NCBI GenBank assembly: GCA_002402375.1
Contig: DHFT01000047.1
Span: 1-63,092 of the forward strand
Origin: Elusimicrobia bacterium UBA4817
GTDB lineage: Bacteria; Elusimicrobiota; UBA8919
Length of the DNA: 63,092 nt
Reading direction: 5' to 3'
Shown here: in pieces, positions 21,765 through 40,536 of the stretch
How positions within the stretch are numbered: position 1 is the stretch's first letter
How the letters are laid out: every line of letters starts with the position of its first letter
The notes under the pieces: model-generated
The model's input: the letters and a program-made list of their open reading frames with translations, nothing else
Databases searched by the model: none
What the model was told of the DNA's origin: nothing
Translations under genes and position numbers: made by a program

Positions 21765-23810
21765 ATGGGATTTATTTTTGTCTTTCCGTTTTTTCTTTTT
21801 TATCTTTTTACTCTTCATCCTGTCGTTTCGGTCGGCGACAGCGGGGAACTTATTACTGCCGCATATACGCTCGGTATTGCTCATCCGCCGGGTTATCCGC
21901 TTTGGACAATTCTCGGCAAAATTTTTACCGTAATAATTCCGTTCGGAAACATCGCCTATCGCGTCAATTTGATGAGCGCATTCTTCGGCGCTTTGACCTG
22001 CGGAGTTGTGTATCTGATACTACAAAAAATGGGAGACGGGAGACGGGAGACGGGAGACGGAAAACCTTTTACCTTTTACCTTTTACCTTTTACCGCTGTT
22101 CTTTGTCTGGTTTTCTCAAAAACATTCTGGTCGCAGGCGATAATTTCCGAGGTCTACACGCTTAACGCATTTTTTGTTGTTTTGATTATCTACTTACTAC
22201 TTACTACTTACCACTTACCGCTTACCGCTTTTATCTACGGACTTTCACTTGCCAATCATTACATTATGTTTCTTTTCGGTCCGGTTTTTGCGTTTTATGT
22301 AATTTGGAAAAAACCCGAGATATTCAGTATTAAAAACATTTTGTCGCTTTCGGCATTTTTTATTCCCGGACTTTTTTTATATTTTTATCTACCGATTCGC
22401 TCGTCGGTAAATCCGCCGATTGACTGGGGCAATCCCGAAAATCTTAAAAATTTTATCGCTCATATCGGAAGATTTCAATACAAAGGACTTGAAATGGCGG
22501 CAAAGGTCGGATTTGCGACTAAACTTCTGTTTGTAAGAGATTTTTTCAGTCAGTTGGTAGAAAATTTCGGATTATTTACAGTTCTTTCCGTTTTCGGACT
22601 TGTGAGTTTAATTAAAAAAGATTTTAAATTTGCTATGCTTACTATTTTAATTTTTTTGGCGAATACGTTTGGGTTGATAATTCTGCTCAATTTCAAATTC
22701 ACGCCGCAGGATATTGACGCTTTTACTCCGTATTATATTCCCGCATGGATTATGGTTGTGCTCTGGGCGGGTTATAAAATAATAGAATGGCGGAATGTAA
22801 GGTTTTTTCTGCCGATAGTTTTTGTGGTGCTGGCTTTTTATGTGTATCAAAACAGCAAAAGCGGCCTGCCGAGATATAATTTTGTTGCTTACGATTATCC
22901 GGTTAATATGTTAAAAACCGTCGAGAAAAATAACACTCTGTATTTGCATGAAGAGGTTGATGAAACCATTTTTACGCTTTCTTATCTGAAAAATGTTCTT
23001 AAAAAGAGGCAGGACATTACAATAGTTGACTCATATAACAATATATTTTTATCAAAAAATATTGACGGTAAATCAAGAGTTTATTACTCTGCAGTTAATA
23101 CGGCGAAAATAAACAAGCCGCTTTATTTGAACGGGCTGTTATGGACAGAACAAAAAGGAACGAACAAAAATATCTTGGATTTTTATGTAGTTCGCGAGTT
23201 GCCAAAAAAATACGAATACAGGGAGCAGGAAGTTATTGCCCGATATTCTTATTTTTACGGAAAATTTTTAATTGATTCGGGGAACATAAAAGACGGAATT
23301 TTTGAATTAAAGAAATCGCTAAAAGCCGGGCCCGAACTTATCTGGCTTTACAATAATGTTGGCGATATTTTAAGGCAACAAAAGGATTACGAAAGTGCGT
23401 TGCATTCTTTAAGTCATGCAATTTCGCTTGATTCTTCATATTCGGCTGCTTATTACAATCTCGGGCTTTTATATTCAGAGAAAAAAAATGATGAGCAGGC
23501 AATTGAATATTTTCAGAAAGCATACCGGTATGATAAAACGGATGAGGATTCGCTTAAACGGATTTCCAAAATTTATCAGAAAAAGGGCTATGAAAATTTT
23601 GTCGGCGGTAAAACGGAAGATGCAATCGCTGAATATAAGAAAGCGATTGAGTATACACCGTCGTCCGCCGATATCTATTATAACATAGGCGTGATTTATT
23701 CGCAATTGCAAAACAAAAAAGAAGCGAAAAATTATTTCCAAAAATACATTCAATTAAAACCGGGAGGCACAAATGCGGAAACAATTAAAAAGTGGCTGGC
23801 AAACAATTAG
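21765..23810 (+). CDS. DUF2723-type polytopic membrane protein (glycosyltransferase-C-like) with C-terminal TPR repeats
   Basis: N-terminus ...VGDSGELITAAYTLGIAHPPGYPLWTILGKIF is typical of DUF2723. Multiple TM helices and C-terminal TPR units (AYYNLGLLY, IYYNIGVIY). Confidence 0.7.
   Translation: MGFIFVFPFFLFYLFTLHPVVSVGDSGELITAAYTLGIAHPPGYPLWTILGKIFTVIIPFGNIAYRVNLMSAFFGALTCGVVYLILQKMGDGRRETGDGKPFTFYLLPFTAVLCLVFSKTFWSQAIISEVYTLNAFFVVLIIYLLLTTYHLPLTAFIYGLSLANHYIMFLFGPVFAFYVIWKKPEIFSIKNILSLSAFFIPGLFLYFYLPIRSSVNPPIDWGNPENLKNFIAHIGRFQYKGLEMAAKVGFATKLLFVRDFFSQLVENFGLFTVLSVFGLVSLIKKDFKFAMLTILIFLANTFGLIILLNFKFTPQDIDAFTPYYIPAWIMVVLWAGYKIIEWRNVRFFLPIVFVVLAFYVYQNSKSGLPRYNFVAYDYPVNMLKTVEKNNTLYLHEEVDETIFTLSYLKNVLKKRQDITIVDSYNNIFLSKNIDGKSRVYYSAVNTAKINKPLYLNGLLWTEQKGTNKNILDFYVVRELPKKYEYREQEVIARYSYFYGKFLIDSGNIKDGIFELKKSLKAGPELIWLYNNVGDILRQQKDYESALHSLSHAISLDSSYSAAYYNLGLLYSEKKNDEQAIEYFQKAYRYDKTDEDSLKRISKIYQKKGYENFVGGKTEDAIAEYKKAIEYTPSSADIYYNIGVIYSQLQNKKEAKNYFQKYIQLKPGGTNAETIKKWLANN
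22032..22094 (+). repeat. Tandem heptamers (GGGAGAC)x4-GGAAAAC-(CTTTTAC)x4 inside the DUF2723 CDS
   Basis: Read directly. 63 nt (9 heptamers) keeps the frame and encodes GDGRRETGDGKPFTFYLLPFT. Confidence 0.9.
22191..22229 (+). repeat. Tandem heptamers (YRCTTAC)x5 inside the DUF2723 CDS
   Basis: CTACTTACTACTTACTACTTACCACTTACCGCTTACCGC encodes LLLTTYHLPLT. Confidence 0.9.
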
Positions 23811-24927
23811 ATGGAAGCGGGAAGTAGGAAGCGGGAAGTTGTTAAAATCTGTACTACTTACTACTTACTACTTACTACTTACTACTTACGGTCTTTACTG
23901 TCAAACGACGATTTCTTATCCCGTATATTTATGTGAATCCGGCAATCCCGACGACTACCGGCTTTTTGCCAATGGCGGCGGTTGGGACGGCTTCTGGTAT
24001 GTCGGATATAACAGGGTTTGGATAGAAAAAATATTCATACCGGAACATTTTTCAGATTACAAAAAAATTTTTATCGGAGCCAAACTCGGACGGATGAAAT
24101 CAAGACAACTTTATGAAAATGGAAAAGCCGTCCTTGACAAAGAAGCAATTCCGGGTGATATTTTTATGGCCGTGTCATCAACACCTTCGTGGAAAAAAAC
24201 AAACTGGAAATTTTTGACGACTACCAACGATATTCCTTTTGAAGGTGATAATGAACTTGCCATTGAGCAGGTCGGCGAATCCCGATGGTTTTGGGCTGAA
24301 GTTCGGTCGGACGAAATAAATTTCGGCGGTGAAAATTATATTGCACTCTGGTCAACATCCGCCTATCTAACAGATTCTTCAAATAGTCCAATAATTGCTG
24401 CTGCATGGGGTAATAAGAACGCAAATAGTTTTATCAATGATGAAATAAAAGGCGTCCCGCCGCAACATTACAGTACCACAACACTTAAATCGCCGATAAC
24501 CGTTTTTGAACCGGCCATCGCAATAAAATTCGTTCCGGAATTATCCCAGAATATAACGGTCGGGTTAATGGGCATAACGGATGGTGAAAATCTCACCGAA
24601 AAAAAAGTAATTTATGCTTCCGTGATTGCCAACGAAATCCAAAAGGTCTGGCTTGAAATTTCCCAAGACAATAAAATTTGGAAAAAACACAGTTTAATTT
24701 TTTATACTTCGCCGTATATATTTTCGCTAAATCCTAAAAAATTATCGGTGGATATTGGATATGAAAATAAAAACCGCGCCGCTTTCCCGCTTTTTATTCG
24801 GGTTTGTGCAACCGACATCTGGGAAAATACGGGACGAAGCCCGTCTCTTAAACTTTTTATAGTTGACCCATCCCTTCCTGAAAAGTCCTTAAGGAAGAGC
24901 GGGGTTGACAAAAAGCGAAAAAAATGA
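23773..24927 (+). CDS. Hypothetical exported protein (start uncertain)
   Basis: Long ORF whose hydrophobic N-terminal segment (LLKSVLLTTYYLLLTTYGLY) is encoded by a heptamer array. No recognisable domain. Confidence 0.5.
   Translation: MRKQLKSGWQTIRWKREVGSGKLLKSVLLTTYYLLLTTYGLYCQTTISYPVYLCESGNPDDYRLFANGGGWDGFWYVGYNRVWIEKIFIPEHFSDYKKIFIGAKLGRMKSRQLYENGKAVLDKEAIPGDIFMAVSSTPSWKKTNWKFLTTTNDIPFEGDNELAIEQVGESRWFWAEVRSDEINFGGENYIALWSTSAYLTDSSNSPIIAAAWGNKNANSFINDEIKGVPPQHYSTTTLKSPITVFEPAIAIKFVPELSQNITVGLMGITDGENLTEKKVIYASVIANEIQKVWLEISQDNKIWKKHSLIFYTSPYIFSLNPKKLSVDIGYENKNRAAFPLFIRVCATDIWENTGRSPSLKLFIVDPSLPEKSLRKSGVDKKRKK
23813..23890 (+). repeat. Tandem heptamers (GGAAGYR)x4 then (TACTTAC)x5 at the 5' end of the exported-protein ORF
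   Basis: GGAAGCGGGAAGTAGGAAGCGGGAAGT ... TACTACTTACTACTTACTACTTACTACTTACTACTTAC read directly. Confidence 0.9.
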
Positions 24928-27533: not shown

Positions 27534-30128
27534 ATGGCTGAAAAATCTGTTTATGACGGGCTTTATTTAACGGATGCACAACTGAAAAACGAATTTGCAA
27601 AGTGCGAGTTCTGCGAGGAAAAACCATGTATGACGGCTTGTCCCTGCAACTGCTCCGCTGCCGATTTTATTATGGCCTCCAGGGTTTTTGATAAATCGGA
27701 TATAAAAAGGTCTGCCGCACAAATAATGAAAAACAATCCGTTCGGCGGTGTCTGCGGAATGGTCTGCCCGGACAGGTTTTGCGTTGCCGCCTGCGTTCAT
27801 AAAAAATTTGATTCACCCGTCAACATTCCTGCCGTTCAGGCGACGATTATAAAAAAAGCCAGAGAGTCGGGCGGGATTGCCGAATTTACAAAACCGCAGC
27901 CGAACGGAAAAAAAGTTGCAATAATAGGCGCTGGCCCGGCCGGATTAGGTGCCGCATCCGTTCTCGGTTCTCTCGGTTATAAAGTTGACATTTACGAAAA
28001 AGAAAATTTTGCCGGCGGAATGTGTAATCTTATTCCGGAGTACCGTCTTGAAAAAAACATGCTTAAAGAGGATTTAAAATTTCTAATATCACTCGGTGAT
28101 ATAAACATAAAATTAAATTCAGAGATAGAAAATCCGGAAATTTTGCTGAAAAAAAAATATGAGGCAATTCTTGTTGCGACTGGTTTAACAGAGCCGATAA
28201 AAGCGGGTATTAAAAATGAGGATTTTGCAATTGTCGGATTAGATTATCTGAAAAACCCGAGAAAATATAAACTGAAAGGAAAAGTTGCAGTTATCGGCGG
28301 CGGTGCAACTGCTGCTGACGCCGCGATGACAGCGAAATCCGTAGGCGGCGCCGAAAGTGTTGAAATGCTCGCTCTGGAAACTGTCGGCGAAATGCCGCTG
28401 ACACAGAGAGAGATGAATGAACTTCTTGAAAACAATATTGAAATAACGGGAAGGCTGCGGGTTACGGCGATTATTAAAAAAGGAGACCATATTTCAGGTC
28501 TTGAGACGGTAAAGGTTTCACTTCCTAAAGGCGTAAAATTTAATCTCAAGGATTTAAAAGAAGTGACGGGCACAAATCAGGTTAGAAATGATATATCAAC
28601 GGTAATAATTGCAATCGGCGCGCGTTCCAAAAGGGAAAAATCTGCTCAACCGTCCGTATTTTATGCGGGCGATTCTGTTCAGGGTCCGACTACTGTCGTG
28701 GAAGCAACCGCTGCGGGAAAAAATGCGGCTTTGAAAATAGATGCATTCGTCAATAAATCCGAAAAACCCGTGATTGAAAAAGAGGTTAAAAGTGATACGG
28801 TACTCAAAGGTTATGTGCATTCTCCCGTATCGCTTGAAACCGACTTTTTCGGCAGAAAAATTTCATCTCCGTTTTTGCTTTCAGCCGCCCCGCCTTCCGA
28901 CGGATACGACCAGATGAAAAAAGCGTACGAGGCGGGTTGGTCGGGCGGAATAATGAAGACCTCGTTTGACAACGTGCCCATTCACATTCCCGGCGAATAT
29001 ATGCATGTATTCAATAATCTGACTTACGGGAACTGCGACAATGTTTCCGGTCATCATCTTGACAGGGTGGTAAAGGAAATTCAGAAATTGGTAAAAGAAT
29101 ATCCCGACCGTCTGACGATGGCATCAACCGGCGGGCCCGTTACCGGTAACGATGAAAATGATAAAAAGGGCTGGCAGTCAAACACGAAAAAACTTGAAGC
29201 GTCCGGCGTAATGGGGATTGAATACTCGCTTTCCTGTCCGCAGGGCGGCGACGGCACCGAGGGTGATATCGTTTCCCAGAATGCCGCATTGACCGCAAAA
29301 ATAATTGACTGGGTGATGGAGGTCGGCGACCCGGAAATTCCGAAACTTTTCAAACTTACGGCTGCGGTGACGTCCATAGTCCCGATTGCCAACGCCATCA
29401 AAAAGGTCTTTACAAAGTATCCGAATAAAAAAGCGGGAATAACTTTAGCGAATACTTTTCCGACGATGTTTTTCAGGACCAGAAAAATGAATTTGCGAAA
29501 TGAGGGACTTCAGTCCCTCGTCAATGTAGCAAATTCAAACCACAATGTAGCCGACACTTCAGTGTCGGTGAGCGAAGCGAATAGATGGGAGGAAGGTATT
29601 ATCGTCGGGATGAGCGGCGAAGGTGTTTTGCCGATAAGTTATCTCACGATTGCCAATGTGTCGTCTCTCGGTGTTACCGTTTCCGGAAACGGCGGGCCTA
29701 TGGATTACAAAGCGGCGATGAATTTTCTTGCACTCGGCGTAAAAACGGTGCAGTTCTGCACTATTGCGACCAAACACGGCTACAAAATTTTTGACGAACT
29801 TGTCAACGGCACCGCTTATCTGATGAAAGAGCGCGGAATAAAATCAATGAAGGAACTTATCGGTATTGCTCTTCCGAAACCGATTACAGGTTTTATGGAA
29901 TTGACGCCGGTAAAAAAAATCTCAACCTGCGATACCGATTTATGTCTTATCTGCGGCAATTGTTCCAGATGTCCTTATCAGGCGATTTCACTTGATAAAG
30001 ACAGACATCCTGTGACGGATGCGGAAAAATGTATCGGATGCAGTATCTGCGTGCAAAAATGTTTCTCCGGTGCGCTGTCTATGCGCGAAAGAACTCCCGA
30101 AGAAACCGCCGCGCTAAAAGAAGATTAG
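27534..30128 (+). CDS. Fused dihydropyrimidine dehydrogenase-like oxidoreductase (GltD/PreT-like FeS-FAD-NAD(P) half, PreA/DHOD-like TIM barrel, 2x[4Fe-4S] tail)
   Basis: N-terminal Cys clusters, VAIIGAGPAGL and VAVIGGGATAAD dinucleotide folds, DHOD-like middle, and C-terminal CLICGNCSRCP / CIGCSICVQKC. Confidence 0.8.
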   Translation: MAEKSVYDGLYLTDAQLKNEFAKCEFCEEKPCMTACPCNCSAADFIMASRVFDKSDIKRSAAQIMKNNPFGGVCGMVCPDRFCVAACVHKKFDSPVNIPAVQATIIKKARESGGIAEFTKPQPNGKKVAIIGAGPAGLGAASVLGSLGYKVDIYEKENFAGGMCNLIPEYRLEKNMLKEDLKFLISLGDINIKLNSEIENPEILLKKKYEAILVATGLTEPIKAGIKNEDFAIVGLDYLKNPRKYKLKGKVAVIGGGATAADAAMTAKSVGGAESVEMLALETVGEMPLTQREMNELLENNIEITGRLRVTAIIKKGDHISGLETVKVSLPKGVKFNLKDLKEVTGTNQVRNDISTVIIAIGARSKREKSAQPSVFYAGDSVQGPTTVVEATAAGKNAALKIDAFVNKSEKPVIEKEVKSDTVLKGYVHSPVSLETDFFGRKISSPFLLSAAPPSDGYDQMKKAYEAGWSGGIMKTSFDNVPIHIPGEYMHVFNNLTYGNCDNVSGHHLDRVVKEIQKLVKEYPDRLTMASTGGPVTGNDENDKKGWQSNTKKLEASGVMGIEYSLSCPQGGDGTEGDIVSQNAALTAKIIDWVMEVGDPEIPKLFKLTAAVTSIVPIANAIKKVFTKYPNKKAGITLANTFPTMFFRTRKMNLRNEGLQSLVNVANSNHNVADTSVSVSEANRWEEGIIVGMSGEGVLPISYLTIANVSSLGVTVSGNGGPMDYKAAMNFLALGVKTVQFCTIATKHGYKIFDELVNGTAYLMKERGIKSMKELIGIALPKPITGFMELTPVKKISTCDTDLCLICGNCSRCPYQAISLDKDRHPVTDAEKCIGCSICVQKCFSGALSMRERTPEETAALKED
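29502..29584 (+). repeat. Hairpin repeat element (family HP-C) inserted in frame in the DPD-like CDS
   Basis: GAGGGACttcaGTCCCTC, then AATGTAGCC-GACACttcaGTGTC-GGTGAGCGAAGCGAATAGA. The flanks are identical to 37165..37209. Confidence 0.8.
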
Positions 30129-30219
30129 TATCGGTGGATGTAAATCCATGAATTGTAGCGGTGGGATTGTCCGCCACTGAGTCATTGGCGGATTTGCCTC
30201 AGGCATGACTATCCCACGA

Positions 30220-30307
30220 TGTAGGGCCGGGCTTTAGCCCTGCTTAAAAAACGCAAACCTATCATGCCGAAGGCAGACCCGCCTCTGGCGGGAAGGTTTG
30301 CCCTACA
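30220..30307. repeat. Nested-palindrome element downstream of the DPD-like gene
   Basis: Outer stem TGTAGGGC/GCCCTACA. Inner stem GCAAACCT/AGGTTTGC encloses the hairpins TGCCgaaGGCA and CCCGCCtctGGCGGG. Confidence 0.6.
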
Positions 30308-30397
30308 GAAATTTCTTGATACAAGCGTGTAAACTGCCTGTATCTTGCTTCGCGCTGCGATTTATGCAAAAATCATTACTTTCGGAGATTTAATCAA

Positions 30398-31189
30398 ATG
30401 AATATAGAACAAGACAATTTTCAGAAGGGTTTGCTAAAACACACCGAGGATTTTAGAAAAGTTCTCGCAACGCCGGCGGGTGATTGGTCGGTTAAAGGTT
30501 TTATAGATATTGCCAAAAACATTTATACTATTTCTGTTGATACAAAAGTTGTTTCCAAAATAATTGAGTTAATGATGTTTCCGGTGCTTCAGAAATTCGC
30601 AAAAGAAAATGGTTATGAAATGATTTTTTCGGCAGAACAAAATCACTATCCAGATGTTACTTTTATCACCAAAGACAAAAAGAAAATCGCTTTTGACCTA
30701 AAAAGTACTTACAGAAAAAATTCCGATGTCGTTTCGGGTTTTACTCTTGGTGCTTTTACAGGTTATTTTCGTTTTAGGGACTCAAAGAAAAATATAACTT
30801 TTCCATACAAGGAATACGAAAAACATTATATTCTCGGTATAATTTATACCCAGCAACAAGAACTGATTGACGAAAACAAGGTTTATACGATTGACGATTT
30901 GGAAAACATTTTATCGGTGGTAAAGGATTTTGATTTTATTGTCCAGGAGAAATACCGGATTGCCAAAGACTGTCCGGGCAGTGGTAACACCAAAAATATT
31001 GGCTCTTGTATAAAAATCAGTGAGTTACGGGAAGGCACTGGCCCATTTTCTACTTTAGGTGTGAAAATTTTTGATGATTACTGGATGAATTATATGACAT
31101 TAGAAATGTCGCGGAATGCAAAGTTGAAAAAACCGCCTTATTCAAATCTCAGAGAGTATTTAAAATATAGGAACATTAAAAATATCTAA
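30398..31189 (+). CDS. EcoRV-family type II restriction endonuclease
   Basis: By-eye collinear match to R.EcoRV: QNHYPDVTF (EcoRV QNHYPDFTL, Asp74), KIAFDLKSTY (IAIDIKTTY, Asp90/Lys92), FTLGAFTGYFR, GSGNTKNIGS, FDDYWMNY. Confidence 0.85.
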   Translation: MNIEQDNFQKGLLKHTEDFRKVLATPAGDWSVKGFIDIAKNIYTISVDTKVVSKIIELMMFPVLQKFAKENGYEMIFSAEQNHYPDVTFITKDKKKIAFDLKSTYRKNSDVVSGFTLGAFTGYFRFRDSKKNITFPYKEYEKHYILGIIYTQQQELIDENKVYTIDDLENILSVVKDFDFIVQEKYRIAKDCPGSGNTKNIGSCIKISELREGTGPFSTLGVKIFDDYWMNYMTLEMSRNAKLKKPPYSNLREYLKYRNIKNI

Positions 31190-31191
31190 TT

Positions 31192-32274
31192 ATGCCTATT
31201 TCACAACAACAACAATCGCAATTATTTAAAGATTTGCCGATGATAAAAACAGGTGTTTTGCCCTCCACCCGTTATCAGGGAAGCAAATACAAAATTTTAG
31301 ATTGGATAAATTATCATACAAAGGATTTAGTATTTGATTCTGTCCTTGATGCTTTTGGCGGCACCGGTTGTGTTAGTTATATGTATAAAAAGAACGGCAA
31401 GAGGGTTATTTATAACGATTCGTTAAAATTTAATTACTATATCGGGTTGGCATTGATAGAAAATTCAAAAACTATTTTGGATGATAACGATACGGATTTT
31501 ATTTTGAAAAAACACTCAAATATCAATTACCCGACTTTTATTTATGATACTTTTCATGATATTTATTATACCGACGGCGAGAACAAGTGGCTTGATGTTG
31601 TCATCACAAATATCAAAAATATAAAAAACAAATATAAGCAATCGTTAGCATACTACGCGTTGTTCCAATCTTGTATTATCAAAAGACCATACAATCTATT
31701 TCACAGAAAAAATCTTTACATAAGAACAGCAGAAATTGAAAGAAGTTTCGGCAATAAAAAAACTTGGGATACTCCGTTTGAAGAACATTTTCTAAAATTT
31801 GCCCAAGAGGCAAACGATGCCGTATTTGATAACGGGGAAAAAAATACTGCCTCCCATTCAGATGTTTTTGATTTAGAAATTCCTAAAGTTGACCTCGTCT
31901 ATATTGATACGCCCTACATTTCCGCACAAGGCAGCGGAGTAGATTATTTTGACTTTTATCACTTCCTTGAGGGCATTGTTTCTTACGACCAATGGAGAAA
32001 TCTTATTGATGAAAAATCAAAACACAAAAAAATAAAGAACGGAAAAAACGAGTGGTGCAATAAGGGAGAAATACACCGGGCATTTGAGAAATTATTTGAT
32101 AAGTTCAAAAACTCTATTCTGGTAGTTTCCTACAGAGACGCCGGCACACCCGCTATTTCCGAATTGGTAGGAATGTTAAAGGTTCAAAAAAAAGACATTT
32201 CTGTAAAAAAACTTGATTACAAATATGTTTTGAGCAACGGAAACTCAAAAGAGGTTTTGATTATAGCCAAATAG
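31192..32274 (+). CDS. Dam/D12-class N6-adenine DNA methyltransferase (cognate MTase of the EcoRV-like enzyme)
   Basis: YQGSKYKIL, DAFGGTGCV AdoMet motif, and catalytic VYIDTPYIS (DPPY variant). Starts 3 nt after the stop of the nuclease gene. Confidence 0.8.
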   Translation: MPISQQQQSQLFKDLPMIKTGVLPSTRYQGSKYKILDWINYHTKDLVFDSVLDAFGGTGCVSYMYKKNGKRVIYNDSLKFNYYIGLALIENSKTILDDNDTDFILKKHSNINYPTFIYDTFHDIYYTDGENKWLDVVITNIKNIKNKYKQSLAYYALFQSCIIKRPYNLFHRKNLYIRTAEIERSFGNKKTWDTPFEEHFLKFAQEANDAVFDNGEKNTASHSDVFDLEIPKVDLVYIDTPYISAQGSGVDYFDFYHFLEGIVSYDQWRNLIDEKSKHKKIKNGKNEWCNKGEIHRAFEKLFDKFKNSILVVSYRDAGTPAISELVGMLKVQKKDISVKKLDYKYVLSNGNSKEVLIIAK

Positions 32275-32288
32275 TTTTATGTAAAAAA

Positions 32289-33637
32289 GGGACAGGTTCA
32301 AAAAGTATCAGATAGTATAATGAAAATTAAGTGCAACTCCTGAAAGAGATATTGTATAATGTATCTGAAGAACAAATCTCTAAACAGGAGGTGCACAATG
32401 TATTACTTAGGCGTCGATTGCCACAAAAAGTACTCACAAGTTGCCGTATTGGACGGAGAAGGAAAACTCAAAATGAACCTGCGAGTTCAAAACAATAAGG
32501 AACATTTTGCTTCATTAGTAGATAATCTCGGTCAACCTTGCCAAGCAGTAATCGAAACCGGTTACACTTGGGGCATTATGTACGATATATTAACTGAATT
32601 CGGCATTGACGTAAAAGTCGCCCATGCACTTAAAGTAAAAGCAATTGCGTCTGCGAAAATAAAAACTGATACTATTGATGCCCGGACTTTAGCCGAACTT
32701 TTGCGTGCCAATTTAATTCCCGAAGTTTACGTGCCGGCTAAAGATATACGCAGTCAGAAAGACATTATACGGCAACGATGCTGGTTAGTCAAGTTGAAAA
32801 CGATGCTAAAAAACAGAATACATCAAGTTATCGGCCGCAACCACATAGAATCGCCCGGTTTCTCCGATATATTCGGGGTCGGTGGCAGAAAATTTCTTAA
32901 CTCGTTAGAGTTGCCTCAACCCGATCAGGATATTCTCCGTCAGGATTTGTCCCTATTTGATTTTATCAATGAACAGATAAAACTTACTGAAAAATGGATT
33001 GAGGACTTTCTTGCAGATAATCATTACAGAAAAATCATTCAGACAATTCCGGGTTTCGGTAAAATACTTTCAACGTTAGTTGCTCTTGAAATAAATGACA
33101 TCAACCGTTTTAATTATCCCGGGAAACTTGCTGCTTATTCCGGTCTTGTGCCGACCACATATGCTTCCGGCGGTAAAGTTTTCCACGGCGATTTGCTGCC
33201 GGGTTGTAATCGCTGGTTGCGGTACGCCTTTGTTGAAGCCGCATGGAAATCAATAGTCGTATCTCCTTATTGCCGTTCGCTGTATGATCGGCTGAAAAAA
33301 CGCAAGTGTTCTAATACCGCTATTGTCGCGGTTGCCCGCAGATTGTCGGAAATCGCATATCTCTGTCTCAAGGAGAACCGATGCTATGAAGAAAGACCTT
33401 ACAAATTATATGAAAAAAGATTTGCTAAAATTTAAATATCATTCCGGTTGCCCTCAGGACGGTTTAATCCTTTAGGGATTCTGTATCAGATTAGGGAGCC
33501 GGAGTTCGGATAACTATTTTGTGCTTTTGCGGCACGCAGAGAAGATTGAATTAAGTTCAAATTATCGTTATTTGTTTTAATGGTCATTTGTTTAGGGCAG
33601 TTCAGGAGTTGACAATTTTCAGAGAAGAACCGTCCCC
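32289..33637 (+). mobile_element. IS110-family insertion sequence (boundaries provisional)
   Basis: Nested inverted repeats: GGGACAGGTTC (32289) / GAACCGTCCCC (33627) and AACTCCTGAA (32335) / TTCAGGAGTT (33601). They bracket a DEDD transposase ORF. Confidence 0.65.
32398..33435 (+). CDS. IS110-family (DEDD/RuvC-like) transposase
   Basis: MYYLGVDCHKKYSQVAVLD N-terminus (first Asp). C-terminal Transposase_20-type IPGFGKILSTLVALEINDINRF. AGGAGG RBS before the ATG at 32398. Confidence 0.9.
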   Translation: MYYLGVDCHKKYSQVAVLDGEGKLKMNLRVQNNKEHFASLVDNLGQPCQAVIETGYTWGIMYDILTEFGIDVKVAHALKVKAIASAKIKTDTIDARTLAELLRANLIPEVYVPAKDIRSQKDIIRQRCWLVKLKTMLKNRIHQVIGRNHIESPGFSDIFGVGGRKFLNSLELPQPDQDILRQDLSLFDFINEQIKLTEKWIEDFLADNHYRKIIQTIPGFGKILSTLVALEINDINRFNYPGKLAAYSGLVPTTYASGGKVFHGDLLPGCNRWLRYAFVEAAWKSIVVSPYCRSLYDRLKKRKCSNTAIVAVARRLSEIAYLCLKENRCYEERPYKLYEKRFAKI

Positions 33638-33684
33638 GAATTACTCAAGGTTCCTTACAAATTTCTTGCTTCGCGCTGCGATTT

Positions 33685-34257
33685 ATGCAAAAATATAAAA
33701 AAATTTTAATTTTCTTGCCGGCATTTATCTTAATTCCCACAATCTGTTTTGCTGATGGTGGTGGCCCGATATTGCTCATTGTCAACGCATATGCGTTTAT
33801 TTTGGGACAAGTATGGATATTATTGTCTGAATATATTTATCTGGCCGTCTTATTAAAATCTACATCTTTATCAAAAGGAAATATTCTAAAATTTACATTT
33901 ATAATGAATATCCTCTCTACTATTGTTGGTGCTCTTCTTTTTCCTTTTCTATTGGCTCTTGTAACTCTACCAGGTATATTTTATATGGAAACAAAATGGG
34001 GTGGATTGCTGATGGCACTTGGAACATGGATAGCGGGGGATAATTCTCCTTATCCTGAAGTAGCAATGGGTTCTACAATAGCGGGTTTTATAATCACTTT
34101 TATTTTAACTGTGTGGATTGAATGTAAGTATCTAAGACGATTATCTCAAAAAAGGCAAATAGAATTTGGAAACAATCTTTTTAAACATTGCATTTGCTTA
34201 AATATAATCAGTTATGTCGGATTAATAACCTTGTTTTTTGTTTTCAAAAAATTATAG
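33685..34257 (+). CDS. Hypothetical polytopic membrane protein (190 aa)
   Basis: Signal/TM segment plus 4-5 further hydrophobic helices. No recognisable domain. Confidence 0.45.
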   Translation: MQKYKKILIFLPAFILIPTICFADGGGPILLIVNAYAFILGQVWILLSEYIYLAVLLKSTSLSKGNILKFTFIMNILSTIVGALLFPFLLALVTLPGIFYMETKWGGLLMALGTWIAGDNSPYPEVAMGSTIAGFIITFILTVWIECKYLRRLSQKRQIEFGNNLFKHCICLNIISYVGLITLFFVFKKL

Positions 34258-34323
34258 AACATCTTAATATTAAAAGAAAAATGGGATGCTTTACATAACC
34301 TTTGCAAGTGTTGGGGAGAATAG

Positions 34324-34683
34324 ATGAAAGAAGAAAATGAAAAAGGAAAAATCGCAGGGAAAAAAGAAGTTCTTTTAGCGAAAACGCTTAAACTTGCAAA
34401 TCTTGTAAGTTACCAAAAAAAGTCCGTTGTAAGTCGCACTCTCATCAATAAAAAGACAGGGACTGTAACGCTTTTCGCGTTTGCTAAAGGGCAGGGTTTA
34501 AGCGAACACACCGCTCCGTTTGATGCGATGGTTTATATTCTTGACGGTGAAGCGAAAATTACGATTTCCGGCAAACCGCTGCCGGCAAAAAAAGGCGAGA
34601 TGGTGATTATGCCGGTGAACAAACCGCATTCGCTCAAAGCGGAAAAAAAATTCAAAATGCTTCTTGTAATGATAAAAAATTAG
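34324..34683 (+). CDS. Cupin-domain protein
   Basis: GLSEHTAPFDAMVYILDGEAKITISG...PHSLKA, a cupin_2-like two-motif pattern. Confidence 0.7.
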   Translation: MKEENEKGKIAGKKEVLLAKTLKLANLVSYQKKSVVSRTLINKKTGTVTLFAFAKGQGLSEHTAPFDAMVYILDGEAKITISGKPLPAKKGEMVIMPVNKPHSLKAEKKFKMLLVMIKN

Positions 34684-34722
34684 AAAAAAAGACAGATATA
34701 ATTTTTATTATGGAGGTTAGGT

Positions 34723-36069
34723 ATGCTTACTTTGTTGTGCAATGGGACGGTGATTACGCCGTCTGAGGTAATTGAAAACGGCGGGGTTTTGTTTGAAGAC
34801 GGAGTGATAAAAGATGTGGGAAATACCGACGAGGTAAGAGCAAAAGTTTTCAGAGTTTCAGAGGATAAAATTCAACTGAAAATTATTGACGCCAAGAAAA
34901 AAATAATTCTTCCGGGATTTATCAACACGCACCACCATCTGTATTCCACTTTCTCCCGCGGGATGTATATTCCGGGGACTCCTGCAAAAAACTTTGTTGA
35001 AGTTCTTGAAAAACTCTGGTGGAAACTGGACAGGGTTTTGACGGCGGAAGATATTTATTATTCCTCGTTAATCCCTTTGATTGAATGCGTGAAAAACGGC
35101 ACGACGACAATCTTTGACCATCACGAATCGCAGGAATTCCAGACCGGTTCGCTTGACGAGATTCAAAAAGCAGTGGAACAAATCGGTATCCGCGCCTGCT
35201 TGTGTCTTGGGTCGTCGGACAGATACGGGAAAGGACAGGAAGGGCTTGAAGAAAACGAAAGGTTTTTGTCAAAAATCAAAAATGAAAAACCGGAACTTAT
35301 CGCCGGCATGGTCGGGCTTCATGCACCATTCACCGTCAATAACGATACATTGGAAAAGCATGCCGCTTTGGCGAAAAAATACAAAGTAGGAATGCACATC
35401 CATTGTGCCGAGGACTTGGCTGACGAAAATGACTCCGTTGAAAAATATAAAATGCGCATTGTTGAGCGGCTGAAAAAATTCGGCGCTCTCGGTGAAAAGA
35501 CAATGCTTATTCACTGCATTCACATAGACGAAAAAGAAATGGATATAATGAAAGAAACAAAAACGAATGCGGTGCACAATCCCGAAAGCAATATGAACAA
35601 TGCGGTCGGATGTGCGGATGTTCTTACGATGCTCAAAAAAGGCATTACCGTAGGTCTTGGCACGGACGGGATGTCGTCCGATATGCTTTCGCAGATGAGA
35701 TGCGCGTATCTAATTCACCGCCACAACAAAAAAGACCCGCGGGTCGCTTTCTGCGAAGCCCCGGAAATGCTTTTGCAGAACAATTCAAAAATCGCAGAAA
35801 AAGTTTTCGGAAAAAAACTCGGAAAAATTGAAGTCGGTTCTCCGGCTGATTTGGTTGTTCTTGACTATAACCCGCCTACCCCTTTATCAAAAGACAATTT
35901 CCTGGGACACTTGATTTTCGGGATGGTGGATGCGACGGTGGATACGACAATTTGCAACGGCAGGGTTCTTATGAAAGACAAAAAACTTGAAGGCATAAAC
36001 GAAGAGCAACTCTGCCAGAAATCGCGCGAACTTTCGTCAAAATTTTGGGAAAGAATAAAAAAATTATAA
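34723..36069 (+). CDS. ssnA: SsnA-type putative aminohydrolase (amidohydrolase superfamily)
   Basis: By-eye collinear match to E. coli SsnA: INTHHHLYS, LWWKLDRVL, HAPFTV, HIHCAEDL, VHNPESNMNN, LGTDGMSSDM. Confidence 0.8.
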   Translation: MLTLLCNGTVITPSEVIENGGVLFEDGVIKDVGNTDEVRAKVFRVSEDKIQLKIIDAKKKIILPGFINTHHHLYSTFSRGMYIPGTPAKNFVEVLEKLWWKLDRVLTAEDIYYSSLIPLIECVKNGTTTIFDHHESQEFQTGSLDEIQKAVEQIGIRACLCLGSSDRYGKGQEGLEENERFLSKIKNEKPELIAGMVGLHAPFTVNNDTLEKHAALAKKYKVGMHIHCAEDLADENDSVEKYKMRIVERLKKFGALGEKTMLIHCIHIDEKEMDIMKETKTNAVHNPESNMNNAVGCADVLTMLKKGITVGLGTDGMSSDMLSQMRCAYLIHRHNKKDPRVAFCEAPEMLLQNNSKIAEKVFGKKLGKIEVGSPADLVVLDYNPPTPLSKDNFLGHLIFGMVDATVDTTICNGRVLMKDKKLEGINEEQLCQKSRELSSKFWERIKKL

Positions 36070-36071
36070 AA

Positions 36072-37496
36072 ATGCTTAAATCAAAAGATGTAGTACTTCA
36101 TTATGGCGAAAAGATTTTGTCAGATTTCATTCCGCAAAAAGTGATTGATAACGGGCAATTTTTTCCTCTGATATATCCAGAAAAACTTCCTGTTATCAAA
36201 GATATTGAAAAAAAATTGGAAGATGCGCTTGAAAAACCGGTCGGGGCTCAAAAACCTTTAAGTATTCTCATAAAAGAAAATTACCGCGGCGGCGATTTAT
36301 CAATAATAGTTGACGACCACGACAGACCGAACATCCACACCCGATTGCTTCTTCCTTATCTGGTTGACTTACTACTTACCACTTACCACTTACCACTTAC
36401 TAAAATAAAAGTTGTAATAGCAACCGGCACCCATCGTCCGTCTACCGATGAAGAACTCAAAAATATTCTGGGCATTCAAATGTTCGGCAAGTTGAATTAT
36501 GTAATTCATAAATGCAGGGAAAATAATGTTGAAGCAGGCAAAATTGACGGTTTAACGGTAAAAATCAACGGCACGGTTTTTAATTCCGATATCATAATTC
36601 CGCTGACGGATGTGGAGAACCATTATTTTGCCGGAATCGCCGGCGGGCCAAAGGCAATATGTCCTGGCATTTGCGATATGGAAACGATAACTTACGAGCA
36701 CTTAAAAATGTTCGGCGAGTGCGGGTTCGCACACAACGTTGATTTGGGAAGTATAGATGGCAACCCGGTTTTTGAGACGAAGAAAAAAATCGTAAAGGCG
36801 GTTATTGAGACGCTGAAAAAAAATAAAAGAGAGGTCTATACTATAACTTCAATCATTGATACTGACGGTGATTTGGTCCATCTTTCCGGCGGGGAAACAT
36901 TTGAAAGCCATCTTAGAGCGGCGGAAATTCTAAAAAATGTCTGGACGGTAAATATAAAAGAGCGGGCGGATATTGTTATTTCCGGCGCAAGCCACTGGGG
37001 AGTGAATCTTTACCAGATGGGCAAAGCCACCCACTGCGCATATCACGCCGTTAAAAAAGGCGGAATCGTTCTTAATGTTGCACCGTGCGAGCAAGGTTGG
37101 GGGAACGAAGAATTTAAAAATCTTATGAAGGTGGGGATGAACGAACTCAACAAAACCGACGATAAATGTAGCCCCCGATTTCAATCGGGGGTGAGCGAAG
37201 CGAATAGAATAAAACAAGCGCTGGTGAGCGTTATAAATGCCGTGAAAAAAGATTTTAAGATAGGCAGGCAAAAGCCGGTTGACCTTTTTCAGATACTGCA
37301 TTTTGTCGGGTGGGGGAATTTGCACATAATTCAGGACGGTATTCCCGAAGAAGATTTCAAATTCCTGCCTTTTGTTTTTTGGGGCGATAAATCGGAACCG
37401 GTTGAAAAACGCTTAAAGTCGTGGCTTGAAAAATATCTCGTCGGCAAGACGGTTGCAGTTGTGGATAATCCCAATTTTCTGATAAAACCTGTATGA
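36072..37496 (+). CDS. LarA-like (DUF2088) nickel-pincer-cofactor-dependent 2-hydroxyacid racemase/epimerase homologue
   Basis: IVDDHDRP, IATGTHRP and HYFAGIAGGPKAICPG (Lys in the GGxK tether position). The ATG at 36072 is 3 nt after the ssnA stop. Confidence 0.7.
   Translation: MLKSKDVVLHYGEKILSDFIPQKVIDNGQFFPLIYPEKLPVIKDIEKKLEDALEKPVGAQKPLSILIKENYRGGDLSIIVDDHDRPNIHTRLLLPYLVDLLLTTYHLPLTKIKVVIATGTHRPSTDEELKNILGIQMFGKLNYVIHKCRENNVEAGKIDGLTVKINGTVFNSDIIIPLTDVENHYFAGIAGGPKAICPGICDMETITYEHLKMFGECGFAHNVDLGSIDGNPVFETKKKIVKAVIETLKKNKREVYTITSIIDTDGDLVHLSGGETFESHLRAAEILKNVWTVNIKERADIVISGASHWGVNLYQMGKATHCAYHAVKKGGIVLNVAPCEQGWGNEEFKNLMKVGMNELNKTDDKCSPRFQSGVSEANRIKQALVSVINAVKKDFKIGRQKPVDLFQILHFVGWGNLHIIQDGIPEEDFKFLPFVFWGDKSEPVEKRLKSWLEKYLVGKTVAVVDNPNFLIKPV
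36366..36403 (+). repeat. Tandem heptamers (YACTTAC)x5 inside the LarA-like CDS
   Basis: GACTTACTACTTACCACTTACCACTTACCACTTACTAA encodes DLLLTTYHLPLT, the same peptide as at 22191..22229. Confidence 0.9.
37165..37209 (+). repeat. HP-C hairpin repeat inserted in frame in the LarA-like CDS
   Basis: AATGTAGCC-CCCGAtttcaaTCGGG-GGTGAGCGAAGCGAATAGA. Same flanks as 29523..29586, with a different but still complementary stem. Confidence 0.8.
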
Positions 37497-38998: not shown

Positions 38999-39833
38999 AA
39001 TATCCGCTCACAAAATTGCTGAAACTGTAAAAACTCTTCTGCTTGATGCCAATTTTTCACTTTCCCAAGATGTTTTGAAAAAAATAAAAAGCGCGTGCAA
39101 CAATGAAAAAAATCCGCGTGCAAAAATGATTTTTGAGCAAATCCTCAAAAACGAAAATATTGCCCGTCGGGAAAAAATTCCGCTCTGTCAGGATACTGGC
39201 ACGGCGGTTGTTTTTTTGGAGGTCGGTCAGGATATTCGGATTGTTGGCGGTAATTTAACTGATGCGATAAACGAAGGCGTAAGGCGGGCGTATAAAAAAG
39301 GATATTTAAGAAATTCAATTGTTTCTGACCCGCTTGAAAGAAAAAACACCGGCGACAATACGCCTGCCGTAATACATATAAAGATTGTTCCGGGAAACAA
39401 ATTAAAAATTTCTGTTCTTGCCAAGGGCGGCGGCGCCGAAAATATGTCTGCGTTAAAAATGTTTCCGCCTTCGGCAACAATTAAGGATATAAAAAATTTT
39501 ATAATTGAGACGGTAATCTCTGCCGGCGCAAACGCCTGTCCGCCGGTTGTGGTCGGTATAGGCATTGGCGGAACTTTTGATACCGTCGGCTTTCTTGCCA
39601 AAAAGTCGCTTTTAAGAGAATTAGATTCTAAAAATCCTAAAAAAATTTATCAAAAATTAGAAAAAGAAATTCTTGCCGATATAAATAAGACGGGCTTGGG
39701 TCCGATGGCTCTCGGCGGCAGAACAACGGCTCTTGCCGTTTTGATTGAAACTGCATCCACGCATATTACATCGCTTCCGGTTGCGGTAAATATTCAATGC
39801 CATGCATTAAGAAAAAAAAGTGTTGTGTTGTGA
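38991..39833 (+). CDS. Fe-S hydro-lyase alpha subunit (class I fumarate hydratase / L-tartrate dehydratase alpha type)
   Basis: PLCQDTGTAVVFLEVGQD and GGGAENMS patterns; 280 aa. Overlaps the upstream gene by 8 nt. No beta subunit gene is adjacent. Confidence 0.75.
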   Translation: MRRISAHKIAETVKTLLLDANFSLSQDVLKKIKSACNNEKNPRAKMIFEQILKNENIARREKIPLCQDTGTAVVFLEVGQDIRIVGGNLTDAINEGVRRAYKKGYLRNSIVSDPLERKNTGDNTPAVIHIKIVPGNKLKISVLAKGGGAENMSALKMFPPSATIKDIKNFIIETVISAGANACPPVVVGIGIGGTFDTVGFLAKKSLLRELDSKNPKKIYQKLEKEILADINKTGLGPMALGGRTTALAVLIETASTHITSLPVAVNIQCHALRKKSVVL

Positions 39834-39862
39834 GTCAAAATTTTATAAAATAAACTCTCTAT

Positions 39863-40435: not shown

Positions 40436-40536
40436 TTTTGCTGCTGTTAATTTATATCTACGAACATAATTTGTGGAAATTCTGCGTTTCACTTTTTTAG
40501 AATTGTGAAATTGTGAAATACTGAAATGGAGGAAAA

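What the first reader, a model, noticed from the sequence alone, without database searches (positions are those of the whole stretch)
22032..22229. Tandem heptanucleotide arrays inside a conserved membrane-protein gene, one with a perfect G-quadruplex motif
(GGGAGAC)x4-GGAAAAC-(CTTTTAC)x4 at 22032..22094 and (YRCTTAC)x5 at 22191..22229 lie in frame in the DUF2723 gene, encoding GDGRRETGDGKPFTFYLLPFT and LLLTTYHLPLT. Seven is not a multiple of three, so gain or loss of a single unit by slipped-strand mispairing would shift the frame. The present arrays are in frame. The first array is GGGagacGGGagacGGGagacGGG, a textbook G3N4 quadruplex motif on the coding strand. The arrays resemble the short tandemly repeated heptamers known from cyanobacteria, but here they sit within ORFs.
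Basis: partly seen in the sequence, partly recalled or inferred. Interest (0 to 1): 0.65.

Follow-up and report, generated by a model that had tools for sequence, protein, structure and literature searches.

The report
Frame-shifting heptamer repeats inside Elusimicrobiota genes
Short runs of a 7-base unit sit in frame inside several ordinary genes of an uncultivated Elusimicrobiota bacterium, and one sister run in the same window occurs with one unit fewer on an otherwise identical DNA stretch, which breaks that gene, so these repeats can act as reading-frame switches.

Summary
(GGGAGAC)x4-GGAAAAC-(CTTTTAC)x4 lies at 22031-22093 and (YRCTTAC)x5.6 at 22191-22229. Both are in frame in a TMEM260-like/DUF2723 + TPR gene of an Elusimicrobiota MAG.

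They are not isolated. The window holds more arrays: the signal peptide of the next gene, and a LarA-like gene that encodes the same peptide, LLLTTYHLPLT. 249 kb of related Elusimicrobiota DNA holds 29 period-7 arrays against 0 in shuffles, mostly inside genes.

The arrays usually replace ancestral sequence at constant length, in permissive segments such as helix ends, loops and signal peptides. Orthologues carry different units at the same sites. The LarA array was gained at least twice, in two well-separated clades. The first array pair, with about 45 nt of non-repeat flank, is shared with a roughly 35%-identical paralogue in a run that appears to be the same genome, which points to gene conversion.

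An ENA contig is identical to the window over 12.3 kb except for loss of one ACTTACC unit. That loss truncates the LarA-like gene.

So the frame-switch idea is supported for a sister array but untested for the DUF2723 arrays. The G-quadruplex motif is present but not conserved, and probably incidental. This is a new variant of the known heptanucleotide repeats.

The parts
21765..23810 (+). Host gene: TMEM260-like/DUF2723 (GT-C type membrane glycosyltransferase-like) N-terminal domain plus C-terminal TPR repeats, 681 aa
   Evidence: ORF. Pfam PF11028 E = 9e-37 plus TPR families. Elusimicrobiota orthologues at 53-75% identity.
22031..22058 (+). (GGGAGAC)x4, purine-rich array encoding GDGRRETGD. 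It lies at the end of predicted helix 63-91 and in loop 92-100. It contains the G3N4 x3 G3 pattern at 22031-22054.
   Evidence: AF2 model: loop 92-100, with pLDDT below 50 at residues 94-98.
22059..22065 (+). GGAAAAC junction unit between the two arrays
22066..22093 (+). (CTTTTAC)x4, pyrimidine-rich array encoding PFTFYLLPFT, at the start of predicted helix 101-116. About 17 contigs of run X1 (a small 1.47-Mb run holding the window at 0.93-1.00 of sampled words) carry this array.
   Evidence: 17 records laid, summed depth about 400 against about 8 per single-copy locus.
21984..22110 (+). Tract nearly identical to a second, P0343-type DUF2723 paralogue in the same runs (X1 and X3): the array pair plus about 45 nt of non-repeat flank on the left and about 15 nt on the right. 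Probable gene-conversion tract.
   Evidence: P0343 loop LILQKTGDGRRETGDGKPFTFYLLPFTVVLCL against window LILQKMGDGRRETGDGKPFTFYLLPFTAVLCL, while its 87% relative P0016 differs there. The paralogue contig in X1/X3 shows one difference in 22095-22110, then 15 in 22111-22183. Upstream it shows 7 differences in 21936-22013, the last two listed at 21977 and 21983, and both contigs end at 22013. The stretch 22014-22065 was not covered by any laid contig.
22191..22229 (+). (TACTTAC)x3-CACTTAC-CGCTTAC-CGCT, array 3, encoding YLLLTTYHLPLTA. It spans the end of helix 129-146, a short loop and the start of helix 151-164. It is shared with orthologues P0003/L126 and P0007/L127 at the same length.
   Evidence: A same-strain contig and a contig about 92% identical both cross it without indels.
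23813..23839 (+). (GGAAGCG GGAAGTA)x1.9, purine-rich array in the n-region of the signal peptide of the next gene (WKREVGSGK). It is an insertion of about 13 codons relative to L001.
23852..23889 (+). (TACTTAC)x5.4, encoding the hydrophobic core of the signal peptide (LLTTYYLLLTTY) of ORF 23773..24927. This core has the same length as the non-repeat core in L001.
36072..37496 (+). LarA-like (Lar_N/LarA_C, DUF2088) gene that hosts a sister array
   Evidence: Pfam. PDB 6d6z malate racemase E = 1.3e-39. Orthologues start at MLKSKD.
36364..36402 (+). GAC TTA CTA CTT ACC ACT TAC CAC TTA CCA CTT ACT AAA = (ACTTACY)x5, peptide DLLLTTYHLPLTK. It replaces the ancestral EKLTVKYKIPSEK at constant length. 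It exists as a 5-unit allele (intact) and a 4-unit allele (frameshift).
   Evidence: The 7-nt deletion at 36374-36380 is the only difference in 12,327 aligned columns against L134.

Best explanation
The two arrays belong to dispersed families of heptanucleotide simple-sequence repeats. These repeats pervade this Elusimicrobiota genome and its relatives, inside genes as well as between them.

Shown:
1. The arrays lie in permissive protein segments: transmembrane-helix ends and loops, the n- and h-regions of a signal peptide, and a surface helix or loop.
2. They occur only in the strand and codon phase whose three-frame translation fits. Pyrimidine-rich units give L/T/Y/F/P stretches and purine-rich units give G/D/R/E/K stretches.
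3. They usually overwrite the ancestral sequence without changing its length.
4. Paralogues within one genome share units, while different genomes use different units at the same site.
5. One array of the family exists as a 5-unit allele and a 4-unit allele on otherwise identical DNA, and the 4-unit allele frameshifts its gene.

Inferred:
1. Arrays are made and homogenised by copying in a 7-nt register, meaning slipped-strand synthesis plus short-tract ectopic conversion between the many copies.
2. The DUF2723 arrays are as unstable as their sister array, so each acts as a stochastic frame switch for its gene.

Whether the cell exploits the switching is open. The G-quadruplex motif is a by-product of one unit's sequence.
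For: Excess of period 7: 29 arrays in 249 kb against 0.0 in shuffles, and none of period 9-12. Of 276 locally divergent patches between orthologues, 16 are 7-periodic, against 0-1 for other periods.

Same site, different units. At DUF2723 loop 1, L002 has ATGAGAT, L003 AGAGGAC, L004 TCATCTG, and L005 and L127 have octamers.

Constant length: LarA, array 3, SsnA in L128 and the signal-peptide core.

Structural position.

Phase fit: the observed phase is one of the two of 7 phases that score best against the ancestral profile.

Copy number: about 17 contigs with the CTTTTAC array and 7 with the ACTTACY array in the 1.47-Mb run X1.

Paralogue sharing: window and P0343, and two paralogues of L003 (10257 and 14445).

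Unit loss: L134 against the window gives 0 mismatches and one 7-nt gap in 12,327 columns. P0319 ends ...TTYHLLK*.
Against: The 4-unit allele comes from a single assembled contig, and no reads could be inspected. All Logan contigs that cross the LarA array have 5 units (X1, X3, X22).

The arrays are short (4-6 units). Unit number is identical among intact orthologues at 69-87% aa identity, so long-term behaviour looks stable. My sampling did favour intact proteins.

No variant was seen for the DUF2723 arrays.

The copying mechanism is inferred only. Not every case keeps length: the purine array at 23813 and the P0203 insertion do not.
Confidence: 0.6

Rival explanations
1. These are evolved contingency loci. 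The arrays are kept because reversible gain or loss of a unit switches the membrane glycosyltransferase-like gene, the neighbouring secreted protein and the LarA-like enzyme on and off, as the AAGACTC repeats do in E. coli neuO.
For: The unit length is not a multiple of 3. An OFF allele was found on an otherwise identical haplotype. The same array was installed at least twice independently at one LarA site, which could reflect selection for a switch. Two of the host genes encode envelope or secreted proteins. For the neuO precedent see PMC13001214.
Against: There are only 4-6 units, against 3-53 (most commonly 20) in neuO, where 65.6% of genomes are OFF. Here 1 of 6 same-strain assemblies or contig sets is OFF. 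Every orthologue I fetched is intact, though those were chosen as full-length proteins. Unit number does not vary among diverged lineages. The arrays also sit in cytoplasmic enzymes (SsnA, LarA-like) and in signal peptides, where tolerance explains them equally well. No evidence of reversibility.
Confidence: 0.25
2. The arrays are stable, neutral passengers with no meaningful switching. They are merely tolerated repeat-derived sequence, and the 4-unit LarA allele is an assembly or consensus artefact.
For: Length is constant across orthologues and in all Logan contigs that cross the arrays. The arrays are short. They sit exactly where proteins tolerate almost any sequence.
Against: The exactly periodic run in the LarA array is 27 nt, so I reasoned that no 28-mer repeats within it. 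The contig name (k141) indicates a final k-mer far longer than the array, which by this reasoning makes repeat collapse unlikely. This was argued, not computed. The single difference in 12.3 kb is exactly one unit. Gene callers found the two resulting ORFs independently.
Confidence: 0.2
3. The arrays are functional nucleic-acid structures: a G-quadruplex in the mRNA or coding strand, or a hairpin between the purine-rich and pyrimidine-rich arms. The structure would pause translation or transcription where a membrane helix or signal peptide emerges.
For: The G3N4 pattern is present, with 0.02 expected by chance. In L002 and L003 the two arms fold far better than shuffles (z = -6.1 and -3.1). 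By eye, the L127 arms are complementary if G.U pairs are allowed; this was not folded. A purine-then-pyrimidine arrangement recurs at two membrane-targeting sites.
Against: The window's own pair folds no better than shuffles (z = -0.14; 95 of 200 shuffles fold as well). The pair at 23808-23895 gives z = -1.6. The G-runs are absent from orthologues and from all other arrays. The LarA and SsnA arrays are single-armed and cytoplasmic. The polar-then-hydrophobic order is already explained by protein needs. Rfam finds nothing.
Confidence: 0.05
4. The arrays are cassettes installed by a dedicated, templated mechanism, such as a mobile mini-element, a recombinase or a reverse-transcriptase-type repeat writer, rather than by generic slippage and recombination.
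For: An identical 39 nt occurs at the identical LarA codon position in lineages of 68% DNA identity, with no flanking recombination tract (site identity 1.00, flanks 0.68-0.73). Array bearers were monophyletic in 0 of 200 bootstraps. The LarA array repeats about 33 nt of DUF2723 array 3 with 3 differences, in the same codon phase.
Against: No candidate enzyme was identified, though the window's genes were not screened for one. Most sites carry lineage-specific units, which fits local generic processes better. Identity of the LarA arrays largely follows from same unit plus same phase, and selection allows only 1-2 of the 7 phases. CTTACNN arrays occur in many phyla.
Confidence: 0.1

Closest known systems
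Long-unit simple sequence repeats (LSSR) of prokaryotes, among which heptanucleotides are the most abundant class (Mrazek et al. 2007, as summarised in PMC4679880 and PMC4692102)
   Same: Short tandem arrays of a 7-nt unit, far more frequent than chance, dispersed over the genome, with many different units. Polymerase slippage in a 7-nt register is the proposed cause.
   Different: Repeats whose unit is not a multiple of three are reported as under-represented in ORFs. Here most arrays lie inside intact genes. They often replace sequence at constant length, and they recur at the same protein sites in different lineages.
Cyanobacterial STRR heptamers, and the GGGNATC / GGGGA(C/T)T G4-forming heptamers of Xanthomonas and Nostoc (Rehm et al. 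2015, PMC4692102)
   Same: Tandem heptamers. The published preference for about four units and for a G3N4 G-quadruplex pattern matches the GGGAGAC x4 array.
   Different: The phylum is different (Elusimicrobiota) and so are the units. The published repeats are mainly intergenic, within 50 bp of ORF ends, and are under-represented on the coding strand of ORFs. Only one of the six arrays here has G-runs.
neuO heptanucleotide VNTR (AAGACTC)n of E. coli K1 phage CUS-3, a phase-variable O-acetyltransferase (PMC13001214)
   Same: A heptamer array inside the coding sequence, translated in all three frames. Full-length protein is made only when the unit number keeps the frame. A one-unit loss gives an OFF allele.
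   Different: neuO has 3-53 units, and two thirds of genomes are OFF. Here there are 4-6 units, one OFF allele has been seen, unit number is fixed among diverged orthologues, and there are many host genes, including cytoplasmic enzymes.
TAACTGA direct repeats of marine Beggiatoaceae, cyanobacteria and Bacteroidetes (MacGregor 2015, PMC4679880)
   Same: One heptamer family scattered in 2-6 copies per set through a genome of a free-living bacterium. Strand use is constrained by stop codons in the three-frame translation.
   Different: Those repeats are mostly intergenic, just upstream of start codons. CTTACNN arrays in other phyla behave the same way: only 4 of 53 'in-ORF' cases have an in-frame ATG within 40 codons upstream and at least 100 codons downstream. 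The Elusimicrobiota arrays lie within proteins.
Rickettsia palindromic elements (RPE), short repeats found in frame inside protein-coding genes (from my own knowledge, not checked here)
   Same: A dispersed short repeat tolerated inside ORFs at permissive surface positions.
   Different: RPEs are insertions of about 100-150 bp that lengthen the protein, and they are palindromic, not tandem heptamers. Most arrays here cause no length change.

Membership tests
Heptanucleotide LSSR (long-unit simple sequence repeat) | At least 3 head-to-tail copies of a 5-11 nt unit | tested here: met
   4.3, 4.4 and 5.6 copies, 93-100% matches.
Heptanucleotide LSSR (long-unit simple sequence repeat) | Frequency above chance, with period 7 favoured over neighbouring periods | tested here: met
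   29 arrays of period 7, 6 of period 8 and none of period 9-12 in 249 kb. Shuffles give 0.0.
Cyanobacterial STRR | Unit sequences CCCCAGT, TTGGTCA or CAACAGT (from my own knowledge) in heterocystous cyanobacteria | tested here: not met
   The units are GGGAGAC, CTTTTAC and CTTACNN. The organism is Elusimicrobiota.
Cyanobacterial STRR | Mainly intergenic location | tested here: not met
   All five strong arrays of the window lie inside ORFs that have homologues.
Phase-variable contingency locus (neuO type) | Repeat inside the coding sequence with a unit that is not a multiple of 3 | tested here: met
Phase-variable contingency locus (neuO type) | Unit-number variants, including out-of-frame alleles, among near-identical genomes or within a population | tested here: inconclusive
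   Met for the sister LarA array: 5 against 4 units with 0 other differences in 12.3 kb. Not seen for the DUF2723 arrays.
Phase-variable contingency locus (neuO type) | Reversible switching at high rate with a phenotypic consequence | not testable with these tools
   Needs raw reads, cultures or reporter constructs.
Phase-variable contingency locus (neuO type) | Long arrays (usually 10 or more units) with wide length spread between strains | tested here: not met
   4-6 units. The length is identical in orthologues of 69-87% identity, against 3-53 units in neuO.
G-quadruplex-forming heptamer repeat (Rehm 2015 type) | Four or more G3 tracts with loops of 1-7 nt | tested here: met
   GGGAGACGGGAGACGGGAGACGGG at 22031-22054.
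G-quadruplex-forming heptamer repeat (Rehm 2015 type) | G-tracts conserved in related copies or orthologues | tested here: not met
   Orthologous sites carry ATGAGAT, AGAGGAC, TCATCTG or non-repeat sequence. The exception is the converted paralogue P0343.
G-quadruplex-forming heptamer repeat (Rehm 2015 type) | G4 folding shown biophysically | not testable with these tools
   Needs CD or a thermal melt.
In-frame inserted repeat element (RPE-like) | The element is an insertion that lengthens the host protein | tested here: not met
   No gap at the LarA site, array 3, the SsnA site of L128, or the signal-peptide core. Loop 1 is 24 against 23 residues.

The most novel reading that the evidence does not exclude
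In this Elusimicrobiota clade, heptamer cassettes are installed repeatedly and precisely at particular codons of ordinary genes. The identical 39 nt appears at the same LarA position in at least two well-separated clades. They would be installed by a templated copy mechanism and retained as evolved ON/OFF frame switches, that is, a genome-wide, repeat-based phase-variation system in a free-living, uncultivated phylum, acting on metabolic as well as envelope genes.
Probability: 0.15. Interest if true: 0.85.

Novelty: new variant of a known kind. Interest (0 to 1): 0.62.

Why it matters
Heptanucleotide repeats are the commonest long-unit repeats in bacteria, yet their origin and use are still open, and they are thought to avoid coding sequence.

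This clade shows three things:
- The repeats routinely overwrite parts of proteins without changing their length.
- The same protein sites are hit again and again.
- Copies are homogenised between paralogues.

One such array has been caught in both an intact and a frameshifted state on the same haplotype. That makes two questions testable with public reads and simple reporter assays: how such repeats arise, and whether repeat-driven gene switching, known mostly from host-adapted pathogens, also operates in free-living environmental bacteria.

There is also a practical point. These arrays break assemblies and can split genes in MAG annotation.

Tried and rejected
1. Arrays as in-frame insertions. 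Rejected for most sites, because alignments show no gaps.
2. Hairpin between the window's two arms. Rejected: RNA fold z = -0.14 on the + strand and +0.24 on the - strand.
3. Known RNA family. Rfam finds nothing in the whole window.
4. Patch transfer by homologous recombination to explain the shared LarA array. Rejected: flanks of +/-60 nt are no more alike than the rest of the gene.
5. Single origin of the LarA array. Rejected: bearers were monophyletic in 0 of 200 bootstraps, and the window's closest relative, P0122 (91%), lacks the array.
6. Unit-number variants in JGI metagenomes. A flank-anchored pattern for arrays 1-2 found nothing. The pattern for the LarA array found two chance matches.
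7. Laying contigs on array 1.
8. Looking up runs with the 4-unit allele.
9. Truncated alleles in other clusters. P0339 (425 aa) is cut far from any array and was not followed.
10. The extra 11 codons in the window's LarA-like gene show no obvious 7-periodicity by eye.
Full report
**Observation.** The stretch 22031-22093 reads (GGGAGAC)x4, GGAAAAC, (CTTTTAC)x4. The stretch 22191-22229 reads (TACTTAC)x3, CACTTAC, CGCTTAC, CGCT. TRF reports both with 93-100% matches. The gene is a TMEM260-like/DUF2723 domain followed by TPR repeats. Its closest relatives are all Elusimicrobiota MAG proteins. The G3N4 pattern occurs once in the window, with 0.02 expected.

**The arrays are not alone.** The window holds three further arrays:
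- (GGAAGYR)x4 at 23813-23839 and (TACTTAC)x5.4 at 23852-23889. These encode the n-region and the hydrophobic core of the signal peptide of the next gene.
- (ACTTACY)x5 at 36367-36400, inside a LarA-like gene. It encodes the same peptide, LLLTTYHLPLT, as array 3.

In 249 kb of window plus related Elusimicrobiota loci I count 29 period-7 arrays, 6 of period 8 and none of period 9-12. Triplet shuffles give 0.0. Most lie inside intact genes. Among 276 locally divergent patches between orthologous proteins, 16 are strongly 7-periodic, against 0-1 for periods 5, 6, 8, 9 and 10.

A scan of one genome per species shows CTTACNN x4 arrays in many phyla. There they mostly sit just upstream of start codons. 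Only 4 of 53 apparent in-ORF cases have an in-frame ATG within 40 codons upstream and at least 100 codons downstream, and one of those four is again an Elusimicrobiota genome. The in-gene location is therefore what is peculiar to this clade.

**Where they sit in the proteins.** I predicted a structure for the DUF2723 protein (mean pLDDT 69). It places the arrays as follows:
- Array 1: end of helix 63-91 and loop 92-100.
- Array 2: start of helix 101-116.
- Array 3: end of helix 129-146, a short loop and the start of helix 151-164.

The LarA-like model (mean pLDDT 84.5) puts its array at the end of helix 88-104 and in the loop before strand 112-117. Purine-rich units give G/D/R/E/K stretches. 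Pyrimidine-rich units give L/T/Y/F/P stretches. For CTTTTAC and CTTACTA, the reverse strand runs into stop codons (checked by hand), so only the observed orientation can be coding.

**Comparison with orthologues.**
- *Loop 1.* This loop is hypervariable. L001 (75% aa identity, syntenic) has plain sequence of almost the same length (23 against 24 residues). L002, L003, L004, L005 and L127 each carry their own arrays at the same place: ATGAGAT, AGAGGAC, TCATCTG, or octamers.
- *Array 3.* It is shared, at the same length, with P0003/L126 and P0007/L127. It is decayed in L001 and replaced by CTCGCTA units in L002.
- *LarA-like gene.* The array aligns without a gap to the ancestral EKLTVKYKIPSEK and to PDB 6d6z.
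- *SsnA aminohydrolase.* L128 has (CTCGTCY)x5 exactly in place of the usual 11 residues, and it keeps the conserved L, R, P, S, L, V, T. P0203 instead has a 22-residue insertion containing another heptamer.

So arrays mostly overwrite permissive segments at constant length, although some are insertions.

**Parallel gain.** The identical 39 nt of the LarA array occurs in the window, P0123, P0131 and, as variants, P0127 and P0130. It is missing from P0122, P0124-P0126, P0128, P0129 and all more distant relatives, which keep the ancestral-type sequence. With the site excluded, the window is closest to the array-less P0122 (91%). Array bearers were never monophyletic in 200 bootstraps, and they fall in two well-separated clades. 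L128 and L130 are 100% identical across the site but 68-73% identical in the 60 nt on either side, so there is no recombination tract. Of the seven possible codon phases, the observed one is among the two that fit the ancestral residue profile. The others score far worse. Selection can therefore explain the shared phase and boundaries. The repeated arrival of the same unit is not fully explained.

**Copying between paralogues.** P0343 is a DUF2723 paralogue of the P0016 type, a lineage about 35% identical to the window's protein. It has LILQKTGDGRRETGDGKPFTFYLLPFTVVLCL where its 87% relative P0016 has a different, AGAGGAC-based loop. X1 is a small 1.47-Mb run that holds the window at 0.93-1.00 of sampled words, so I take it to represent the same genome. 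In X1, and likewise in X3, a second contig that continues into P0343-type sequence matches the window closely around the arrays:
- Right side: one difference between 22095 and 22110, then 15 differences in the next 73 nt.
- Left side: 7 differences in 21936-22013, the last two listed at 21977 and 21983, and both contigs stop at 22013, as expected where two loci become identical.

The stretch between 22014 and 22065 was not covered by any laid contig. This looks like gene conversion of about 125 nt that carried the array pair between paralogues. In L003, two tandem paralogues likewise share AGAGGAC units. The same run shows about 17 contigs with the CTTTTAC array and 7 with the ACTTACY array, so donors are plentiful.

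**Unit-number change.** The protein cluster of the LarA-like gene contains a 109-aa protein ending ...DLLLTTYHLLK* and a 338-aa protein, both on one ENA contig. That contig, L134 (12,320 nt), aligns to window 28972-41298 with no mismatch. Its single gap is the loss of one ACTTACC unit at 36374-36380. The exactly periodic run is only 27 nt and the contig name indicates k = 141, so I judge repeat collapse unlikely, but I could not inspect reads. Logan contigs of X1, X3 and X22 cross the array with 5 units.

For the DUF2723 arrays, no variant was seen:
- Array 3 is crossed without indels by a same-strain contig and by a relative about 92% identical.
- Array 2 breaks the contigs.

**Nucleic-acid structure.** The window's purine and pyrimidine arms fold no better than shuffles (z = -0.14). 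The arms in L002 and L003 are significantly complementary (z = -6.1 and -3.1). The G-runs are not conserved at the orthologous sites. I therefore treat the G4 motif as incidental, and the arm complementarity seen in some relatives as unexplained.

**Comparison with what is known.** Published work reports the following:
- Heptamers are the most abundant long-unit SSRs in bacteria, with 7-nt polymerase slippage as the suggested cause.
- G-rich heptamers with a four-unit preference occur in Xanthomonas and Nostoc, but they are intergenic and under-represented on the coding strand of ORFs.
- neuO is switched by a coding heptamer array with 3-53 units, and two thirds of genomes are OFF.

I found no paper on such repeats in Elusimicrobiota in the held library.

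**Verdict.** This is a new variant of a known kind. It is a heptanucleotide SSR family that lives inside genes, overwrites permissive protein segments, is homogenised within genomes, and can flip a reading frame. The G4 idea has no comparative support.

Noticed in passing
L002:2193-2347: An intergenic pair of inverted heptamer arrays (AATGTAA/AATTAAA ... TAATTTT) flanks a core of about 90 nt. The region folds far better than shuffles (z = -5.8). It looks like a MITE or a small structured RNA.
   Followed up: partly
L002:794-944; window 22064-22094: Arrays coincide with assembly breaks. A run of 100 N follows two arrays in L002. Logan contigs of several runs end inside the CTTTTAC array, and both paralogue contigs stop at 22013. 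MAG annotation around such arrays is therefore fragile.
   Followed up: partly
L127:5240-5330; L005:10240-10360; L002:12040-12100: Octamer arrays occur beside the heptamers. L127 has ACAGCGAC and GTTGCTGT arms, which by eye are complementary if G.U pairs are allowed. L005 has CTTACCCG. L002 and L127 share AGCGATTA in the n-region of the gene downstream of DUF2723.
   Followed up: partly
window about 37170-37205: The window's LarA-like gene has 11 extra codons (CSPRFQSGVSE...) that its close relatives lack. The distant P0131 shares ...KC..SEANRIK there. No obvious heptamer periodicity by eye.
   Followed up: partly
L003:10257-10294 and L003:14445-14510: Two of three tandem DUF2723 paralogues in one genome carry the same AGAGGAC unit at the same loop. 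This is concerted evolution of arrays within a genome.
   Followed up: partly
window 28972-41298 vs L134: L134 shows what this stretch of the window encodes: an EcoRV-type endonuclease with a D12-class methyltransferase, an IS110-family transposase, a cupin, the SsnA aminohydrolase, the LarA-like gene, an FAD oxidase and a fumarase. The wider synteny seen in L001 adds xanthine-dehydrogenase-family genes and Mo-cofactor-related genes (XdhC, NTP_transf_3), together with an ABC transporter.
   Followed up: no
window 36367-36402 in runs X1-X5, X22, X23: The array region recruits 3-8 contigs per run with unrelated flanks. One recurrent locus is preceded by the purine-rich GGGAATCCGAAGTAGGATAAGGATT. 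So purine-then-pyrimidine array pairs exist at further loci of this community.
   Followed up: no
L129:9959-9984: An (ACTTACA)x3.7 array overlaps the stop of panD and lies 17 nt upstream of the LarA-like gene, which itself carries the ACTTACY-type array 300 nt further on.
   Followed up: no
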